This document shows, one piece after another, positions 47,264 through 64,000 of a stretch of 64,000 nucleotides of DNA. This DNA comes from Nitrosopumilaceae archaeon (GTDB lineage Archaea > Thermoproteota > Nitrososphaeria > Nitrososphaerales > Nitrosopumilaceae), in assembly GCA_965208905.1 (NCBI GenBank), contig OZ242365.1, positions 1,408,001 through 1,472,000 of the forward strand, given 5' to 3'. The first letter of the stretch is position 1; every line of letters begins with the position of its first letter. The translations under genes were made by a program, and so were the position numbers. The notes beneath the pieces are model-generated. The model was not told the origin of the DNA. It did not search any database and saw nothing but the letters and a program-made list of their open reading frames with translations.

Positions 47264-48902
47264 GGGAATTATATACAAAAGTACAGCAGTCTTAACCGCC
47301 TACTTTTCGTTGGCTTTCACCATTCAGGGTGCGTGTGTTTGGCATGCGCTTTGGAAGCGCGGTCTTGACTACCTGCCAGTCTCCTACAACCGGTGGTGGC
47401 GTGCGGTTGCGTAGGCTTATTCGGTCCCTCAAGTCCGTCCCGGACTTGATGCATAAACGACTTGCCTTTTGGGCGCGTCTTGAGTTTGGTTTTATGTAAT
47501 CATAATTGTTGTTATAGTTGTTGTCTGGACTGTACATGATGTTGAATGCGCCGTTATAGTCGGCATGACATACAGTGCCGCAGTTCCGACACTTGAACTT
47601 TCTATCATGGTTCCACCTCTCATGTACAATTTCATTATTGTGCCAAATCTTGAATCCACCGTAGCGTTCGGTGTCCTTACTACAACATGCGCCACACCGT
47701 TTGGACGTATTGTAGGGTTTAACCTCTCTGATTTCCGTATTATGCTCAGGGGCTTTCTTTGTACACCAATCACGGACTTCACCGGCCTTACTCTCTTTTA
47801 GTGTGCGGTTCTTGCCTTTGGCGCAGTTGCCCCCCTTGCGGGTAAGATTCACCAAGTTGAGGTTCTCAAATTTTACCAAATCGCAGTCCACGCACAGTTC
47901 CTTGCAAAAGTGTCTGTACTTATTCAACTGCCAGTTGTATAGCGTTTTGCGCTGCCGTTTCATGCTGTCATTTATCTTATTCCATCTGTTGCTGTTATGT
48001 GTACATCTGTCACGTTCGGACTGGAGTTTTCTAATGTGCTTGCCTATTTCATCATTGTACAATTTAAGAAGGCGTGTAGTACCGTCCGACAGTGCCACAT
48101 ATGCTGTCAACTTGCCTATGTCAACACCCGCCGTCAACCCTGTTATCTTCCTGTCCGGGATGTACTTTTGTATTGTAAGGTGTAACTCAAACTGGCGGTG
48201 ACCGCGCCGTCTATCCGCATCACTCGTTATGTCAACAATCTTGTGTGACACTACGGTTTTGATGTTGGGTAGCCGCCCCTTCGTGATGCTGAACTGTGTG
48301 TCTGACTTGGGAAATGTGACCGTGTTGTGTTTGATTCGCTTTGGTGCACCAAGGAAGAATATCGGATATGTTTTACCGTCTTTGAGATGCGTACAGTCCT
48401 TCATTTCAATACCTGCCAGGATTGCACCGCGAATTAAGTGTAGTGGTGCGCATTCCTTGGGGTCGGTATTATCCCATTCTGCCATCATGCTTTTGGCAAC
48501 CGTAACGCATGTCAATGCGCTTCGGGGATACGGACTAGGACTACTGCTGGCAGTGAACTGCACGTTCAAGTTACGACACATAACACCTAGTTCAACCCAC
48601 ATACGGCTTTCGGCCTCCAGACTTTCAACATATGAGGTGATTATACTATTTGTCTTTAGGCGGTATTTGCGGGTTCTATAGATTATACTCTTCTTGGTCT
48701 GCATATCACATATTATGATATTTCAGATATAAAGTTACATACCTCATATTTACTATATGATATGTATAGTACAGTCCCGACCACATGCCAGTCTGTCAAA
48801 TTACGGCGCTGTTATACGGCATGCCAAACACACGCACCCTGAATGGCGAAAACCAACGAAAAATAGGCGGTTAAGCCTACTGTACTTTTGTAAGTAATTC
48901 CC
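47264..48902. mobile_element. TnpB element flanked by 84-bp imperfect inverted repeats (47264-47347 / 48819-48902)
   Basis: 77/84 identity by eye; both copies terminate in ...TAATTCCC. Confidence 0.75.
47292..48704 (-). CDS. tnpB: TnpB-like RNA-guided endonuclease
   Basis: RuvC-I GVDIG, RuvC-II FENL, Zn finger TSKRCGAC...FKCRNCG, RuvC-III HADYNGAFNI; no transposase adjacent. Confidence 0.85.
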   Translation of the reverse strand: MQTKKSIIYRTRKYRLKTNSIITSYVESLEAESRMWVELGVMCRNLNVQFTASSSPSPYPRSALTCVTVAKSMMAEWDNTDPKECAPLHLIRGAILAGIEMKDCTHLKDGKTYPIFFLGAPKRIKHNTVTFPKSDTQFSITKGRLPNIKTVVSHKIVDITSDADRRRGHRQFELHLTIQKYIPDRKITGLTAGVDIGKLTAYVALSDGTTRLLKLYNDEIGKHIRKLQSERDRCTHNSNRWNKINDSMKRQRKTLYNWQLNKYRHFCKELCVDCDLVKFENLNLVNLTRKGGNCAKGKNRTLKESKAGEVRDWCTKKAPEHNTEIREVKPYNTSKRCGACCSKDTERYGGFKIWHNNEIVHERWNHDRKFKCRNCGTVCHADYNGAFNIMYSPDNNYNNNYDYIKPNSRRAQKASRLCIKSGTDLRDRISLRNRTPPPVVGDWQVVKTALPKRMPNTRTLNGESQRKVGG

Positions 48903-49120
48903 TATGTGGTCTGGCCAGCATATCGGCGAAATGAATAGAGAATTTGTATATTTATATGTGAGATTATGCCATTAGCATTATGAAGAAATTTAAGCATACA
49001 AATGATGAGTTGGAACAAGCAAGGCTTGAGGCCAAGGGCGGCGATGACCCCACTGTACGGCAAGGCCAAAAGAAGAGTAAATATGGCCAAAGTATAATAG
49101 AATTTTAACTTTTTTCATTA

Positions 49121-58284: not shown

Positions 58285-58667
58285 ATACTCATCGTATCAC
58301 CAGATTGTAGTGATTTTAATATGGATATGTCACCCTCCATCACACCCAATGGGGTCATGAGTTTTTTGGTGTCATAATCACCTACAATAAAACAGAGGCA
58401 TTGTTGACCGGGTAGAAATGCAATATCGCCAGCCGAGAAGTCATCCCGGCCCCGCTCCAGACTAGACTTTATCTCGGCATTTATGTATACCATCTGCCCT
58501 AAAGAGTGTACATGGCCACGTAATGGTAATGATGCCAGTATACGTCGTACAGTACGTGGTGCCAAATGCCGTTTTAGATGTAGTCGTATTGAAACTCCAC
58601 GTACATCCAGCATTATCTTTTGATAGGATAGTGTACGGCTCTGCAGTATCTTGTCTTTAGATGACAT
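58266..58667 (-). CDS. Cyclophilin-like fold protein
   Basis: RHLAPRTV...LP...GDIAFLP...LCF. Confidence 0.75.
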   Translation of the reverse strand: MSSKDKILQSRTLSYQKIMLDVRGVSIRLHLKRHLAPRTVRRILASLPLRGHVHSLGQMVYINAEIKSSLERGRDDFSAGDIAFLPGQQCLCFIVGDYDTKKLMTPLGVMEGDISILKSLQSGDTMSIYEDTT

Positions 58668-61300
58668 TATACTTCACTGATGGCGGCTTGCGCAGCAGCC
58701 ACCATCGCTATGGGAATGCGGTGGGGCGAGGCGCTAACATAACTTATGCCAGAAGCATGACAAAACTTTACAGAGTTTGGGTCACCGCCATGCTCTCCGC
58801 ATATTCCAATCTCCATAGAACTATTGACAGAGCGTCCTTTAGATATTGCTATATTCATCAGTTCGCCAACACCATCAACATCTAGTGACTGGAATGGGTT
58901 ATGAGACAGTATCTCTTTATCCATATACTCAGGAAGGAACTTGCCTTCAGCATCCTCACGGCTAAATGAGTAAGTGGCTTGTGTCAGGTCGTTGGTGCCA
59001 AAACTAAAGAACTCAGCCGTTGTGGCCAGTGCATTCGCAGTTATGGCTGCCCGGACCACCTCTATCATAGTTCCAAAGTTTACAGAGAGTTTGCGGTTGT
59101 ATCTCTTCTCCATCTCTGCCTTTATTGTGCCGTATATCTCTTTGATATAGTTCAACTCCTCAACACTTCCCACCTGGGGAATCATTATCTGGGGGCGAGC
59201 ATCGACTTTTTCGTTGGCCAGTCTGGCAGTAGCCTCAAAGACTGCCCTGATCTGCATCTTGTATATTTCAGGGTAGGTAATACCGACTCGAACGCCTCTG
59301 TGACCCATCATGGGATTGACTTCGGCCAAATCCCTAGCCCGGCGCAGAACAGGTGTAGTGTCTTGCGCATCGGACTTTGACATCGTCTTTATCTTGTTGC
59401 TTAGGGTCTCGGGATCTGGTAAAAATTCATGTAGTGGCGGATCCAGTAATCGTATAGTAACTGGATATCCTTCCATGGCTCGTAGTATCTTGACAAAGTC
59501 ACTACGCTGTAGTTGTTGCAGTTTCTGCAGTATCTTGTTTCGCTGTGTTATATCATCAGCCATTATCATATCAACAAAGAGTCCTATTCGATCTTTGGCG
59601 TTAAACATCCTTTCAGTGCGGCACAGTCCAATTCCTTGCGCCCCATACTTGCGGGCCAGTCGGGCGGCTTCAGGAGTATCTGCATTTGCTCGGATTCCCA
59701 AGCGTTTGGAGTCTTGAGCCCAGGATAGTAATCTTTTAAAGTTTTTAGTTATCTTGGGAGATATTGTGGGTACCTCGCCTGTATATATTACGCCAGTAGA
59801 GCCATCTATTGTTATCGAGTCCCCACTATGTAGTGTGGCATTTTGGGTAGTACATGTATCTGAATCATAGTCTATGTGCAGGTCCACACAGCCGACTATG
59901 CAGGGCTTGCCCATACCGCGGGCCACCACTGCAGCGTGTGATGTCTTGCCGCCCCTGCTGGTCAATATGCCCATCGAAGCAAAGAATGCAGGTACATCTT
60001 CAGGCTTTGTCTCCTCCCGGACTAGAATGACAGGCTTTCCCTCCTCGCCTAGTGCGGTAGCCTTCTTGACATCAAAGACTACGATACCAGACGCAGCTCC
60101 GGGCGAAGCTGCAATTCCCTTGGCCAGTATTTTGTGATTTTTGGCGGCCTTTGTATCTATACTAGGGTGCAGCATCTGCTCTAGTTGATCTGCAGAGAGT
60201 CTGGATACGGCACGGTTCTTGTCTATCAGACCCTCATCAACCATCTCTACAGATGTGCGAACCATCGATACGGCATTCATTTTGGCGCTTCGGGTCTGCA
60301 GTAGATAAAAGCGACCCTGCTCCAGTGTGAACTCTATATCTTGTGGTTCAGAAAAGTGTTGCTCTAATGTATTGCAGGTCTGCACCAATGTATCGTATGC
60401 CTCGGGCAACTCCTTCTTCATGTTAGATACAGGTTTTGGTGTGCGCGTACCAGCAACAACATCCTCACCTTGTGCATTAACCAGATAATCACCAAATATT
60501 TGATTGGCTCCATTTCCAGGGTTTCGGGTAAATATTACGCCTGTGGCCGAGTCGTTACCCATGTTACCAAATACCATGGTTACTACATTCACGGCAGTAC
60601 CATCGGCAATATCCGGAGTGATGTTATTCTTTTCGCGATACACCAAGGCCCTCTCACCCATCCAGCTGGCAAATACTGCTTTTATTGCCAACTCAAGCTG
60701 CTCGTCCGGATCAGATGGGAACTCTGCTCCTGTCTGTTTCTTGCATACATCTTTGTATTTTTTCACTATATTCTGCAACGAGTTCTCATCAAGCTCGCTA
60801 TCCAGAGTAACATTGCAGCGGGTCTTCTCTGCATTCAATATATCATCAAAGTGCGAGTCATCAACACCAAAGACAACCTTGCCAAAGAGTTGTATGAATC
60901 GACGATACGAATCCCAGGCAAATCTTGGATTACCACTCTGCGTCTCCAGACCAACTACAGTATCATCATTCAAGCCTAGATTCAGTACTGTATCCATCAT
61001 CCCAGGCATTGAGATGGCTGCGCCAGAACGCACCGATACCAACAGGGGGTTGGTCTTAGACTTCCATCTCTTTCCGGTCTCTTTGTCCAGTACCGCTATC
61101 TTACGTTTTACCTCCTTCATCAACGACTTTGGTAGTGTGTTGTTGTTTGCATAGTACGACTTGCACACATCCGTGGTAATTACAAAGCCAGGAGGAACCG
61201 GTAGTTTCAAGGATGTCATCTCACATAGGCCAGCTCCTTTTCCACCAAGTAATCGGCGGCTCTGACCATATCCTTCATTGAAAAGATAGACTGTCTTCAA
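58667..61300 (-). CDS. ppdK: Pyruvate, phosphate dikinase
   Basis: LLGGKGAGL, SMPGMMDT, GKTSHAAVVARG, GLCRTE, FSFGTNDLTQ, GICGEHGG. Confidence 0.98.
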   Translation of the reverse strand: MKTVYLFNEGYGQSRRLLGGKGAGLCEMTSLKLPVPPGFVITTDVCKSYYANNNTLPKSLMKEVKRKIAVLDKETGKRWKSKTNPLLVSVRSGAAISMPGMMDTVLNLGLNDDTVVGLETQSGNPRFAWDSYRRFIQLFGKVVFGVDDSHFDDILNAEKTRCNVTLDSELDENSLQNIVKKYKDVCKKQTGAEFPSDPDEQLELAIKAVFASWMGERALVYREKNNITPDIADGTAVNVVTMVFGNMGNDSATGVIFTRNPGNGANQIFGDYLVNAQGEDVVAGTRTPKPVSNMKKELPEAYDTLVQTCNTLEQHFSEPQDIEFTLEQGRFYLLQTRSAKMNAVSMVRTSVEMVDEGLIDKNRAVSRLSADQLEQMLHPSIDTKAAKNHKILAKGIAASPGAASGIVVFDVKKATALGEEGKPVILVREETKPEDVPAFFASMGILTSRGGKTSHAAVVARGMGKPCIVGCVDLHIDYDSDTCTTQNATLHSGDSITIDGSTGVIYTGEVPTISPKITKNFKRLLSWAQDSKRLGIRANADTPEAARLARKYGAQGIGLCRTERMFNAKDRIGLFVDMIMADDITQRNKILQKLQQLQRSDFVKILRAMEGYPVTIRLLDPPLHEFLPDPETLSNKIKTMSKSDAQDTTPVLRRARDLAEVNPMMGHRGVRVGITYPEIYKMQIRAVFEATARLANEKVDARPQIMIPQVGSVEELNYIKEIYGTIKAEMEKRYNRKLSVNFGTMIEVVRAAITANALATTAEFFSFGTNDLTQATYSFSREDAEGKFLPEYMDKEILSHNPFQSLDVDGVGELMNIAISKGRSVNSSMEIGICGEHGGDPNSVKFCHASGISYVSASPHRIPIAMVAAAQAAISEV

Positions 61301-61338
61301 ACAATTTTCACCTATTTATGGCTCTTTTAAAGCCTTGC

Positions 61339-62776
61339 GGGGCTTATCCCTGTAACTGTAACCTAAAAACAGCCAGACTTGTAAACCCATATCATGAGTT
61401 AGGTTTTTAAAGTACTATAGCGTATAGAACGGCATGTATAGATCACATAGCGTCCGCATAGACCTGACACGCTCTCAGGCGCGTCACATATCCAAAATAC
61501 GGAACTCACAGCGGTTCGTGTATAATTGGGCCGTAGAGAAGCTGCTGGCCGACCCCACACTCACTACATATGATCTCTCCAGGGAGTTTACCAAACTTCG
61601 CAGATGTACACCGCACCTACAGGAAGTAGAGCGCATATACCAAAATACGGCCATCCAGCAGGCCCGCACTGCTGCGGATGTCTCGAACAAATACGGCAAC
61701 GGCAAACTAGGTTTCCGCTCCAAAAAGCTTGACAATACAAAGGCAGTATCATGTGATGTACAGCCTGTATATGTGGACAACAGACACGCGTCATTGCCGG
61801 GCCTTGGTGTTGTTGAGTTGCCTGAGGAGCAGCCATACCAATTTCCACACAACTGGCTGTATGGCTCAAGGTCTTTCCGTTTGGTATGTATAACACCAAA
61901 GTCGTGGGGGCACGTCAAGTCATGTGACCATATCTACCGGTTGCACATAACATATGACGTACCTACACCCGAACGGCGCGCCAAGACCGGTGTTGTTGCC
62001 GGCATAGATAGGGGGATAACAAATCCAACGGTTGTCTGTAAGACAGACCATAACGCCTCAAATATAACATCATACGATACAGCAACCGCATTCCGCACTA
62101 ACCGTACATGGAATGATGATGCGCGTCGTACCATATCACACCGCAACAAGCACTCCCGTACAACATACAAGATGAAACGCAAGCGAGAAAAGTACAATCG
62201 TGGTAATGCGAATGACCGCGAGTATGCAGAATGGTTATTGGCCAAGAAGATATGCGAGGGTGTGGATGTGATATATGTCGAGCAGCTCCACCTTGAGGCC
62301 ATGAGCAGGCGCGGTGGTAGGCACAAAAAGGGCATGAATCGTGGTATGAGGTTCATTCGGCATTATGCAATACTGCGAAAGATACGCATTGTCGCAGAGC
62401 GGTTGGGCATCCGTGTAGTAGAGGTGAATCCAAAACACACGAGTCAGGAGTGCAGTATATGCGGCTACACAAACAAGGAGAATCGAAATGGGGAGACATT
62501 CAAGTGTCTCAAATGTGACCACATGGCAAACGCCGACGGCAATGCGTCGGTGAATATAATTCAACGGGGGACCGGTATGAAGGTTCCCGCGGGGGAAGGA
62601 ATAGCCCTCGAAAGGCGTGAAATGGGCCGGACCCGGAAGCCACCTGTTTGTGCAGTTCCGGACGCCAAGCGGCGGCGTGAGAATCAAGCGTGCAATCGAC
62701 CCAAAACATCAAGCGTCATGAAGCACCTGGGAATGTACGCGTATGTTACGTATGTTCAGTAAGGTGGATAATTCCC
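61339..62776 (+). mobile_element. Non-autonomous TnpB element with terminal inverted repeats and 8-bp target-site duplication
   Basis: AGCCTTGC at 61331-61338 and 62777-62784; ends GGGGCTTATCC / GGATAATTCCC. Confidence 0.85.
61434..62762 (+). CDS. tnpB: TnpB RNA-guided endonuclease
   Basis: RFVYNWA N-terminus, GIDRG, VEQL, VNPKHTSQECSICG, FKCLKC, NADGNASVNI. Confidence 0.93.
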   Translation: MYRSHSVRIDLTRSQARHISKIRNSQRFVYNWAVEKLLADPTLTTYDLSREFTKLRRCTPHLQEVERIYQNTAIQQARTAADVSNKYGNGKLGFRSKKLDNTKAVSCDVQPVYVDNRHASLPGLGVVELPEEQPYQFPHNWLYGSRSFRLVCITPKSWGHVKSCDHIYRLHITYDVPTPERRAKTGVVAGIDRGITNPTVVCKTDHNASNITSYDTATAFRTNRTWNDDARRTISHRNKHSRTTYKMKRKREKYNRGNANDREYAEWLLAKKICEGVDVIYVEQLHLEAMSRRGGRHKKGMNRGMRFIRHYAILRKIRIVAERLGIRVVEVNPKHTSQECSICGYTNKENRNGETFKCLKCDHMANADGNASVNIIQRGTGMKVPAGEGIALERREMGRTRKPPVCAVPDAKRRRENQACNRPKTSSVMKHLGMYAYVTYVQ

Positions 62777-63250
62777 AGCCTTGCCATGAAAGTATTGTGG
62801 GTTTTGCAGAATGGTATCGTGTGGAGTATAGTGTTTTTTTATCTCTTGGTGCGTACACAATATTATATGTTGTAAGGTGCCAGAAGGTCCAACTTCAGAT
62901 GTGTTATACGGTTGGCGTTACAGACACAAAATAGATGACATATACAATATATTGTCAAAAATTATCTGTGAATAGCATCTTTTATTCCACACCAAATAGT
63001 GTCCAAAAACATGAAAGTTAATTTTTGGGGCTGGGAAGATACGGTGACCTGGTGTATACTGGAAAGTTTGTGACTCGGAGTGGAAGGGAGGTCGTTATAC
63101 ATTAGGAGTGTGGAGTCATATATGAGGTCGCATACTTACATTTCCAGCCTAGGTGTTTTAACTGAATGGGAGCCATACACTGAACAGTTCAGCCTTGACA
63201 GAACCATTCAATCAAATAAAATTTTTAAAAAAGCGCATCATAATATAACT

Positions 63251-63595: not shown

Positions 63596-64000
63596 ATGAA
63601 TAACCAAACTAATGCCCAAAAAATAAAGGCTGCCCTAAAACAGACTAAGAGTACAACGCAATACGCCCGTATCGTAGCCGTAAATATGGTGCGCGTTAAA
63701 GGATATACCGTCTCTGCGGCAGCGGATGTGCTTGGTGTAGATCGTAGCACCATATATGATTGGCTTAATGTCTACGACCATAAAGGCCTGGATGGCCTCG
63801 CCGATGGTGCGAGGCCTGGCCGTCCATCTTTCGTACCGCGCCACACATTAGAGAATATAATTAACAATACCAAACAATTCACCGCCTACGGATTTGTTAA
63901 ACTGGCTGAGAAAAAGACCGGCATAAAATACAGCGAATCGCAAGCGCGCCGTATCCTTAGGTCTCTTGGGTTTACCATACGGAAGACTCCCCGGATATCC
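63596..64000 (+). mobile_element. IS630-family transposase, N-terminal HTH part (runs off the window)
   Basis: Manual translation ...AADVLGVDRSTIYDWL...GLDGLAD..RPGRP...RRILRSLGF; not in the ORF track. Confidence 0.85.

What the first reader, a model, noticed from the sequence alone, without database searches (positions are those of the whole stretch)
61325..62800. TnpB carried in an element with TIRs and an 8-bp TSD: an RNA-guided nuclease apparently co-opted by DDE (IS1595-like) ends
Seen: TTTTAA-[AGCCTTGC]-GGGGCTTATCC...tnpB...GGATAATTCCC-[AGCCTTGC]-CATGAAAG. This is an exact 8-bp direct repeat outside imperfect TIRs (9/11, about 14/20). The only gene is a TnpB with all three RuvC acidic residues and a long tail after RuvC-III where an omegaRNA would overlap. 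Known: IS200/IS605 and IS607, the usual TnpB carriers, have no TIRs and make no TSD. From memory, 8-bp TSDs with ends like ggnnatTAT / nnnGcnTATC characterise the IS1595-family ISNwi/ISSod11 groups, which carry passenger genes. Inference: the element is mobilised in trans by a DDE transposase, and the omegaRNA scaffold ends at the right TIR so that the guide begins with the TSD. It would then cut the empty allele (TAM ~TTTAA) but spare the filled allele, where the left junction gives only an 8-nt match and the right junction has no TAM. This would be a prokaryotic parallel to Fanzor capture by DDE transposons.
Basis: partly seen in the sequence, partly recalled or inferred. Interest (0 to 1): 0.92.

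Follow-up and report, generated by a model that had tools for sequence, protein, structure and literature searches.

The report
TnpB cargo inside IS1595-type transposon ends
A 1.4-kb jumping element in a sponge-associated archaeon carries only an RNA-guided nuclease gene (tnpB) yet has the inverted ends and 8-bp target duplication of an IS1595-type transposon, so a transposase encoded elsewhere in the genome most likely moves it; the general arrangement is published, but this partner family seems not to be.

Summary
Window 61339-62776 is a 1438-bp element with imperfect inverted ends, flanked by an exact 8-bp duplication (AGCCTTGC). A sister genome (G083) holds the empty site with one AGCCTTGC. 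The family has 8 copies here and more in 3 of 5 congeners; of 24 insertions, 16 have 8/8 and 4 have 7/8 duplications.

The same closed genome has four IS1595 DDE transposase elements with the same tips (GGGAATTATA) and 8-bp duplications. Two are 2130/2131 identical. It has no Y1 TnpA and no serine recombinase. Trans-mobilisation by an IS1595 transposase is therefore well supported.

TnpB looks functional: the D-E-D triad is invariant, dN/dS is about 0.2, and the 3' 210 nt are conserved like a guide-RNA scaffold.

They share instead a one-sided TATA-like box 11-18 nt upstream, usually the promoter of a divergent gene.

DDE-associated TnpBs with inverted ends and solo copies moved in trans are published (Altae-Tran 2023), so this is a new variant, not a new kind. 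IS1595 is not named in the texts I could read. The scan had already found TIR-bounded TnpBs of other families in this genome.

The parts
61331..61338 (.). Left copy of the 8-bp target-site duplication, AGCCTTGC
   Evidence: It is single-copy in the empty allele of G083.
61339..62776 (+). Whole 1438-bp non-autonomous element (subfamily A of the family I call c4)
   Evidence: Copy-to-copy homology begins and ends here. It is absent from the G083 allele.
61339..61363 (+). Left terminal inverted repeat, degenerate (GGGGCTTATCCCTG...)
   Evidence: It matches the canonical tip GGGAATTAT at 7 of 9 positions, and only 3 bases are identical counting from the tip. Other A copies read GGGACTTAT.
61404..61411 (+). 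Internal TATA-like box TTTTTAAA. Its TTTAAA starts 28 nt before the tnpB ATG, so tnpB probably has its own promoter and a leaderless mRNA.
   Evidence: Genome-wide, all-A/T hexamers peak at -29 from the ATG of long ORFs. This is an inference.
61434..62762 (+). tnpB, 442 aa. RuvC D192 is the codon at 62007-62009, E283 at 62280-62282 and D368 at 62535-62537. The zinc-finger cysteines are C340, C343, C358 and C361.
   Evidence: These residues are invariant in 11 family members down to 40% identity.
62545..62776 (+). Putative omegaRNA scaffold, overlapping the tnpB 3' end and the right inverted repeat
   Evidence: Nucleotide identity to congener copies is 75-84% here against 56-66% in the ORF body. 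dS is 0.021 in codons 371-435 against 0.35-0.38 upstream (two pairs). RNAalifold gives 57 pairs, 5 of them with compensatory changes. There is no Rfam match and no RNA evidence.
62752..62776 (+). Right terminal inverted repeat (...GGTGGATAATTCCC)
   Evidence: It is identical to the ends of the transposase-bearing elements for 9 nt from the tip.
62777..62784 (.). Right copy of the target-site duplication, AGCCTTGC
62777..62796 (+). Inferred guide template (duplication plus flank), assuming the omegaRNA reads out of the right end as in canonical TnpB elements
   Evidence: This is inference only. The 20 nt are present unchanged in the empty G083 allele.
61313..61319 (.). Host TATA-like motif TATTTAT, in the register shared by the family's insertions (-18..-12 from the first duplicated base)
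   Evidence: It is host DNA, because it is present in the empty allele.
61325..61330 (-). Predicted TATA box of ppdK (TTTTAA, at -30..-25 from the TTG start at 61300). It abuts the duplication, so the element sits in the BRE position of the ppdK promoter.
   Evidence: This is an inference from spacing.

Best explanation
Window 61339-62776 is a transposase-less derivative of an IS1595-family insertion sequence. Its only cargo is an intact tnpB with a conserved, structured 3' region that most likely templates its omegaRNA.

Shown: the element inserted as a unit with an 8-bp target duplication, and it belongs to a multi-copy family that keeps these ends across TnpBs only 55-68% identical.

Strongly inferred: IS1595 DDE transposases, encoded by separate elements in the same genome that share the terminal GGGAATTATA and the 8-bp duplication, bind the ends and move it in trans.

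Inferred: TnpB with its omegaRNA is a working RNA-guided nuclease kept by selection acting on the element, and the guide is read from the DNA just outside the right end, meaning the duplication plus flank. For this family the comparative data do not show a TAM next to that target, so the homing step is the weakest link.

Copies of this family sit in a fixed, oriented register next to host promoters. A TATA-like box lies 11-18 nt left of the duplication, tnpB points away from it, and a divergent gene usually starts 40-44 nt away. In the window the element lies in the BRE position of the ppdK promoter, and the duplication preserves the original octamer next to the TATA box.
For: Ends and duplication. 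Of 24 insertions, 16 are 8/8, 4 are 7/8 and 1 is 6/8.

Empty site with one AGCCTTGC in G083.

Partner elements. The core GGGAATTATA occurs 34+34 times against about 2.9 expected per strand, and 15 pairs carry duplications of 7-8/8. Elements of 2131, 2690 and 2837 bp encode a 316-320 aa protein, and the 316-aa one scores DDE_Tnp_IS1595 2.2e-40. The two 2131-bp copies are 2130/2131 identical, and two TnpB copies are 99.9% identical, so transposition was recent. Subfamily B ends match transposase-element ends for 10-13 nt from the tip. IS1595 transposase homologues occur in 5 of 5 congeners.

No canonical partner. There are 0 Y1_Tnp and 0 Resolvase matches in a closed genome that is 99.6% complete, against 75 TNB-domain matches.

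Functional TnpB. D192, E283, D368 and four Cys are invariant. dN/dS is 0.17-0.20 over codons 1-370 (two pairs). 6 of 8 copies have open frames.

omegaRNA-like tail.

Promoter register. 18 of 21 insertions have an all-A/T hexamer starting at -19..-14, against 2 of 21 at the mirrored right position and 8% of random genome positions. Per-position binomial p is <=1e-4 at four positions and 4e-4 at a fifth. A divergent ORF starts at -40..-44 in 12 of 20. The genome-wide TATA peak is at -29.
Against: No experiment links any transposase to these ends.

The window copy's left end is degenerate, with 7/9 to the canonical tip and 3 bases identical from the tip.

No single pair of ends enclosing both a transposase and a tnpB was found. 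In G065 the two kinds of element merely abut head to head, 6 bp apart.

The nine transposase-bearing elements whose ends I could define have mostly AT-rich duplications and lack this family's TATA register. The same enzyme's target choice therefore does not obviously explain where this family sits.

No conserved base lies at -6..-1, which speaks against a TAM-dependent cut of the empty site.

No RNA evidence exists for an omegaRNA or its 3' end. Covariation is modest, at 5 of 57 pairs.
Confidence: 0.8

Rival explanations
1. The omegaRNA guide begins with the duplication, a TAM (~TTTAA) lies directly 5' of it in the empty allele, and TnpB cuts empty alleles so that the element is copied back in (homing). 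Filled alleles are spared.
For: The canonical TnpB layout puts the guide just outside the right end, and the scaffold-like conservation runs up to the end.

The empty G083 allele carries the 20-nt would-be target unchanged, preceded by TTTTAA.

Sister TnpB families in the same genome do show one-sided motifs directly 5' of the left duplication. These are G at -1 in 12/12 here plus 4/5 in G065 for the 450-aa family with the same tips, and WTA or ATTG-like motifs for the two IS6-type families (5 insertions each). Among the 9 transposase-bearing elements only 2 of 9 have G at -1 in either orientation.
Against: In this family, 21 insertions share nothing at -6..-1. The last five bases include TTTAA, GTGAA, CGATA, CACAC, TCTAT and GAGCG. 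TTTTAA in the window is the ppdK TATA box by spacing.

Three DNA-like runs from three studies show only the filled allele, but contigs cannot show rare alleles.
Confidence: 0.2
2. TnpB is a mere passenger. It is moved by the IS1595 transposase but has no role in the element's spread or retention, being inert, decaying or used by the host.
For: A DDE transposase would not need it. 2 of 8 copies are broken. The family is absent from two congeners that do have the transposase.
Against: dN/dS is about 0.2 between copies, with dS of 0.35-0.38. The catalytic and zinc residues are invariant down to 40% identity. A 3' RNA-like region is conserved far above the coding need. The association with these ends persists across TnpBs of 55-68% identity in four genomes. 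Landing sites differ by cargo family, not by end type.
Confidence: 0.12
3. The promoter-edge register reflects targeting or retention that depends on the cargo. Either a dedicated transposase variant or TnpB with its RNA reads a TBP/TFB-bound TATA box and places the element a fixed distance away, or only such copies survive.
For: The register is sharp and one-sided. It is not seen for the 450-aa family with the same tips, for the IS6-type families, or for 9 transposase-bearing elements.
Against: No mechanism is known. The transposase-bearing sample is only 9. Host selection against insertions that disturb neighbouring genes could give both position and orientation. No link between a donor's guide and a new target was found: the best match was 13/20, which is chance level.
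Confidence: 0.3
4. The element is moved by TnpB itself or by an unidentified enzyme, and the resemblance to IS1595 ends is coincidental.
For: No transposase lies inside the element. The window copy's left end is poor.
Against: The 10-13 nt tip identity and the same 8-bp duplication length are shared with four transposase-encoding elements in the same genome, two of them near-identical. TnpB is established as a nuclease, not a transposase (recalled from the literature; PMC13565253 passages).
Confidence: 0.04

Closest known systems
DDE-transposase-associated TnpBs (branches DDE-1 to DDE-6; Altae-Tran et al. 2023, PNAS, PMC10691335)
   Same: Both have a TnpB between inverted terminal repeats instead of IS605/IS607 ends. 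The TnpB 3' end lies close to the transposon end. Solo TnpBs carry ends like those of transposase-bearing elements, and trans mobilisation is inferred (section 9 read).
   Different: The main text names only IS630 as a partner, and 'IS1595' occurs 0 times in it. A 2026 review (PMC13565253, passages) lists ISL2, IS630 and IS1031. Here the partner is IS1595 by Pfam. No element was found holding both genes. The supplements that list the loci were closed, so IS1595 may be there unseen.
IS1595 family insertion sequences, including members with passenger genes (ISNwi1-type ends; from memory of ISfinder, not checked)
   Same: Both make an 8-bp duplication and have short inverted ends beginning GGnnATTAT. 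Relatives in the same genome carry passenger genes: an N6_N4 methylase-HNH fusion in the 2837-bp element (Pfam) and a related ORF, not Pfam-scanned, in the 2690-bp element.
   Different: This element has no transposase. The passenger is a TnpB with an RNA-like tail.
IS200/IS605 family, IS1341 group (tnpB-only elements)
   Same: Both are a single tnpB with the same domain set. NCBI names close relatives 'IS200/IS605 family element transposase accessory protein TnpB'.
   Different: IS200/IS605 elements have no inverted ends, make no duplication and insert 3' of a fixed 4-5-nt motif (PMC13565253 passages). Here there are inverted ends, an 8-bp duplication, no fixed adjacent motif and no Y1 transposase in the genome.
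Fanzor in eukaryotic DDE transposons (Bao and Jurka 2013, PMC3627910; seen in a search listing only)
   Same: Both are a TnpB-type nuclease riding in elements with TIRs and TSDs that are moved by DDE transposases.
   Different: This case is prokaryotic, with a small TnpB. According to the review passages, Fanzor TAMs include the short fixed duplication. Here the duplication is 8 bp and variable.

Membership tests
IS1595 family (as a non-autonomous derivative) | Encodes a DDE_Tnp_IS1595 transposase | tested here: not met
   The only long ORF is tnpB. The transposase is encoded by separate elements.
IS1595 family (as a non-autonomous derivative) | 8-bp target-site duplication | tested here: met
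   (16 of 24 are 8/8 and 4 of 24 are 7/8).
IS1595 family (as a non-autonomous derivative) | Terminal inverted repeats shared with transposase-encoding members | tested here: met
   The ends are identical from the tip for 10-13 nt in subfamily B and for 9 nt at the window's right end. The window's left end gives only 3 nt from the tip (7/9).
IS1595 family (as a non-autonomous derivative) | End consensus of the ISNwi1 group as curated in ISfinder | not testable with these tools
   The consensus is recalled only. ISfinder is not available. A search for ISNwi1 plus IS1595 gave 2 irrelevant papers.
IS200/IS605 (IS1341 group) | No inverted ends, no duplication, insertion 3' of a fixed short motif | tested here: not met
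IS200/IS605 (IS1341 group) | A Y1 (HUH) TnpA available in the genome | tested here: not met
   0 matches to PF01797 in the closed genome. The control rang in 6 of 14 genomes.
IS607 | Serine recombinase TnpA | tested here: not met
   0 matches to PF00239. The control rang in 12 of 14 genomes.
DDE-associated TnpB (Altae-Tran 2023) | Inverted terminal repeats, and solo copies with ends like those of transposase-bearing elements | tested here: met
   compared with PMC10691335 section 9.
DDE-associated TnpB (Altae-Tran 2023) | Placement in one of the branches DDE-1 to DDE-6 | not testable with these tools
   The tree and locus lists are in supplements, which were closed.
TnpB RNA-guided nuclease | RuvC D-E-D triad and zinc finger | tested here: met
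TnpB RNA-guided nuclease | omegaRNA overlapping the 3' end, with the guide outside the right end | tested here: inconclusive
   Conservation, a drop in dS and a consensus fold support a scaffold. There is no Rfam hit and no RNA cover.
TnpB RNA-guided nuclease | A conserved TAM 5' of the target in the left flank | tested here: not met
   No conserved base lies at -6..-1 in 21 insertions.

The most novel reading that the evidence does not exclude
In this archaeal genus the TnpB cargo, not the shared IS1595 ends, decides where copies are found.

This family sits at a fixed, oriented register at the upstream edge of host core promoters. The duplication lies 41-48 nt upstream of a divergent leaderless gene, and the TATA box 11-18 nt away.

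The sister family with the same tips shows a one-sided G directly 5' of an AT-rich duplication.

Transposase-bearing elements with the same tips show neither pattern.

That would mean TnpB with its RNA leaves a selective or targeting footprint on DDE-mediated transposition. It would be natural-population evidence that the nuclease works for a cut-and-paste transposon, and possibly a promoter-reading mode of site choice.
Probability: 0.3. Interest if true: 0.8.

Novelty: new variant of a known kind. Interest (0 to 1): 0.55.

Why it matters
TnpB is the ancestor of Cas12 and a compact genome editor. Its known biology, which is homing after scarless excision, is tied to IS605 and IS607 elements.

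This is a closed archaeal genome with 75 TnpB-domain matches. It has none of the canonical partner enzymes, and most of the TnpB families examined here sit in DDE-type shells. It is a natural system for asking what the nuclease does for a cut-and-paste transposon.

It also adds IS1595 to the DDE families seen with TnpB. It offers a defined empty/filled allele pair and recently active partners for experiments.

Finally, it gives cargo-specific landing-site signatures that could reveal TAMs or a promoter-linked site choice.

Tried and rejected
Chance duplication was rejected by the copy series and by the empty site.

RNA-guided choice of new sites by a donor copy's flank-derived guide was tested. 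I compared all ordered pairs of 24 insertions. The best match was 13/20, which is chance level.

I first read the one-sided TATA box as a captured promoter reading into tnpB. I largely dropped this reading for three reasons. The element has its own TATA box 28 nt before the ATG. The rightward ORFs are mostly tiny. Long divergent ORFs start at -40..-44 in 12 of 20 insertions.

I considered that the guide might be the inverted repeat itself. The fold leaves the last 11 nt unpaired, but nothing in the flanks matches such a guide, so I give it little weight.

RNA evidence: run X19 gave a ppdK contig over 60700-61289 and only tiny contigs inside tnpB (61629-61728 and 61849-61907). Nothing covered the 3' end, so no statement about expression or RNA ends is possible. 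No joint skipping the element appeared in X1, X2 or X9, and contigs cannot show rare alleles.

Rfam gave 0 matches.

Wider distribution:
- The genome-contig scan gave 2 loci, both from one Nitrosopumilaceae MAG that repeat loci I already had.
- The metagenome scan gave none.
- 0 of 95 genomes from 26 other genera of the family matched at E<=1e-30.
- The protein search found relatives down to 39-41% identity, but I could not see their DNA.

One search used wrongly guessed coordinates for L013 and is void. One search replaces it.

The script stopped on a division by zero after two of five pairs, so only those two are reported.

In one search my longest-ORF rule failed on 7 of 19 loci. One search recovered 4 of them.

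Of 22 transposase loci, only 9 elements in all (4 in G000 and 5 in congeners) gave definable ends.
Full report
**What is there**

The octamer AGCCTTGC lies at 61331-61338, followed by the element at 61339-62776, followed by AGCCTTGC again at 62777-62784. The left end is GGGGCTTATCC and the right end is GGATAATTCCC, which match 9/11 as inverted repeats.

The only long ORF is tnpB at 61434-62762, 442 aa. Pfam finds Cas12f1-like_TNB (2.5e-18), OrfB_IS605 (28.4 bits, under its 30.5 cut-off) and HTH_OrfB_IS605. Against solved structures it aligns with Cas12f and TnpB chains.

In an alignment of 11 family members down to 40% identity, D192, E283, D368 and the four zinc-finger cysteines are invariant.

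**It is a real, mobile, multi-copy element**

The window lies in a closed genome of 2,214,775 bp. Seven full copies and one split copy share homology that begins and ends exactly at the proposed boundaries.

There are two subfamilies:
- Subfamily A (four copies, including the window) has a diverged left end, GGGACTTATCCC.
- Subfamily B has perfect 20-bp inverted repeats, GGGAATTATATACCTGGGTA.

Homologous TnpBs of 55-68% identity in 3 of 5 other genomes of the genus carry the same tips. None was found in 95 genomes of 26 other genera of the family at E<=1e-30.

Over 24 insertions, the duplications score as follows:

| Duplication match | Insertions |
|---|---|
| 8/8 | 16 |
| 7/8 | 4 |
| 6/8 | 1 |
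| 3/8 or fewer | 3 (one of these, L017, was a mis-pairing that is 8/8 with the other left end) |

Congener G083, whose flanks are 98% identical, has the empty site with a single AGCCTTGC and no copy of the family at all. Three DNA-like runs from three studies carry the filled allele. Two B copies are 99.9% identical.

**Who moves it**

The core GGGAATTATA occurs 34 times on each strand against about 2.9 expected. Fifteen pairs have duplications of 7-8/8. Among them are the following elements:
- Two 2131-bp elements encode only a 316-aa protein with DDE_Tnp_IS1595 (2.2e-40) and a weak IS1595 zinc ribbon. The two differ at 1 of 2131 bases.
- Elements of 2837 and 2690 bp carry a 319-320-aa homologue plus a second ORF. 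In the 2837-bp element that ORF is an N6_N4 methylase-HNH protein by Pfam.

Subfamily B ends match these ends for 10-13 nt from the tip. The window's right end matches for 9 nt, and its left end only at 7 of 9 positions.

The genome has 75 TNB-domain matches but no Y1 transposase and no serine recombinase. Transposase homologues occur in all five congeners.

I found no single pair of ends around both a transposase and a tnpB. In G065 the two kinds of element abut head to head, 6 bp apart.

Trans mobilisation by an IS1595 transposase is therefore the best-supported reading. It remains an inference.

**Is TnpB kept for a purpose?**

Between copies, dN/dS is 0.17-0.20 over codons 1-370, with dS of 0.35-0.38. 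In codons 371-435, dS falls to 0.021 (two pairs, because the script stopped afterwards).

Across genomes the last 210 nt before the repeat are 75-84% identical, against 56-66% for the ORF body.

A consensus fold of 14 sequences gives 57 pairs, 5 of them with compensatory changes. The inner part of the right repeat pairs with an upstream segment, and the last 11 nt are unpaired.

This fits an omegaRNA scaffold that runs to the element's end. Rfam has no match. The one RNA run shows nothing there.

**The guide and TAM model**

If the guide is read from outside the right end, it begins with the duplication. The TAM should then be the last bases of the left flank.

In 21 insertions of this family nothing is conserved at -6..-1. 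The window's TTTTAA is, by spacing, the TATA box of ppdK. All-A/T hexamers peak at -29 from the ATG of 1310 long ORFs in this genome, which points to leaderless genes.

Sister TnpB families do show adjacent one-sided motifs:
- The 450-aa family with the same tips has G at -1 in 12/12 insertions here and 4/5 in G065.
- The two IS6-type families show WTA and ATTG-like motifs, with 5 insertions each.
- Nine transposase-bearing elements do not show this pattern. G at -1 appears in 2 of 9 in either orientation.

**An unexpected register**

This family's insertions share a one-sided TATA-like box at -18..-11 from the first duplicated base. An all-A/T hexamer starts at -19..-14 in 18 of 21 insertions. 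The same test gives 2 of 21 at the mirrored right position and 8% at random genome positions.

In 12 of 20 insertions a divergent ORF starts at -40..-44, which makes the box that gene's TATA box. The window copy has ppdK starting at -31.

The sister families and the transposase-bearing elements lack this register. Donor guides do not match new sites.

I cannot say whether this is targeting or selection.

**What is known**

Altae-Tran et al. 2023 (PMC10691335; I read section 9 and passages) report six DDE-associated TnpB branches. All have inverted terminal repeats, and solo TnpBs carry matching ends and are inferred to move in trans. Only IS630 is named in the main text.

A 2026 review (PMC13565253, passages only) lists ISL2, IS630 and IS1031.

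Literature searches gave the following:

| Search terms | Result |
|---|---|
| TnpB + IS1595 | 9 papers, none relevant by title or abstract |
| TnpB + TIR + TSD + DDE | 17 papers |
| Cenarchaeum + TnpB | 0 papers |
| Five-term search | only the PNAS paper |

None showed IS1595 as a partner. The supplements were closed and may list it.

Earlier notes of this scan had already described TIR-bounded TnpBs of other families in this genome and led me to the PNAS paper.

**Verdict**

This is a new variant of a known kind, and its landing-site pattern is new to me.

Noticed in passing
Whole genome G000 (the window is C1:1408001-1472000): There are 75 TNB-domain matches falling into 8 TnpB families, yet no Y1 transposase and no serine recombinase. 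Most of the TnpB families examined are bounded by inverted repeats, and several have 8-bp duplications.
   Followed up: partly
G000 genome 102957-104422 and 15 other copies; G065 loci L083, L086, L090, L092, L094: A 450-aa TnpB family, 30% identical to the finding's protein, has the same GGGAATTATATA tips. It inserts with AT-rich 8-bp duplications and a one-sided G directly 5' of the left duplication (12/12 here, 4/5 in G065). Transposase-bearing elements with the same tips lack this (2 of 9).
   Followed up: partly
G000 genome, e.g. 239554-241169 and 1677879-1679392: Two TnpB families (about 520 and 465 aa) have 23-bp inverted ends GGTTCCTCCCGCAA..., 8-bp duplications and short derivatives of 189-585 bp. 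The left flanks end in WTA or in ATTG-like sequences (5 insertions each).
   Followed up: partly
G000 genome 1098872-1110533 (outside the window): One copy of the finding's family is split by about 10 kb of inserted DNA. The two halves still share the duplication TGTGCCAA. The insert includes a 461-aa ORF with a weak DDE_Tnp_IS1595 match (E 2.4e-4, below the cut-off).
   Followed up: partly
G000 genome 1043578-1046414 and 1770047-1772736: The 2837-bp IS1595 element carries, beside the transposase, an N6_N4 DNA methylase fused to an HNH nuclease as a passenger (Pfam). The 2690-bp element carries a related ORF that I did not scan.
   Followed up: partly
L025 (G065) 2864-2871: The end of a TnpB element and the end of a transposase-bearing IS1595 element face each other, 6 bp apart. 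This may mean insertion next to a related end.
   Followed up: no
G000 genome 1612204-1612260: A 27-nt fragment of the subfamily A left end lies directly beside another GGGAATTATAT-type end. It may bear on how subfamily A got its odd left end.
   Followed up: no
Genome-wide; in the window, ppdK 58667-61300 (-): All-A/T hexamers peak sharply at -29 from the ATG of long ORFs (303 of 1310 start exactly there). Most genes here therefore look leaderless, with a TATA box at -29..-24.
   Followed up: yes
Window 47264-48910 (genome 1455264-1456910): A third TnpB family (470 aa) with the same TAATTCCC tip lies in the window. Its two flanks do not match each other. The right flank of this copy equals the left flank of the copy at genome 2049497-2050909, which suggests recombination between copies.
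   Followed up: no
Window 63596-64000: An ORF runs off the window end. Its N-terminal helix-turn-helix region looks like that of an IS630-type transposase. This is by eye and was not scanned.
   Followed up: no
Window 61885-62392 in runs X2 and X9: Contigs skip 506 bases of tnpB, with 8 other letters in between. This is an internally deleted variant of some copy of the family in those samples.
   Followed up: no
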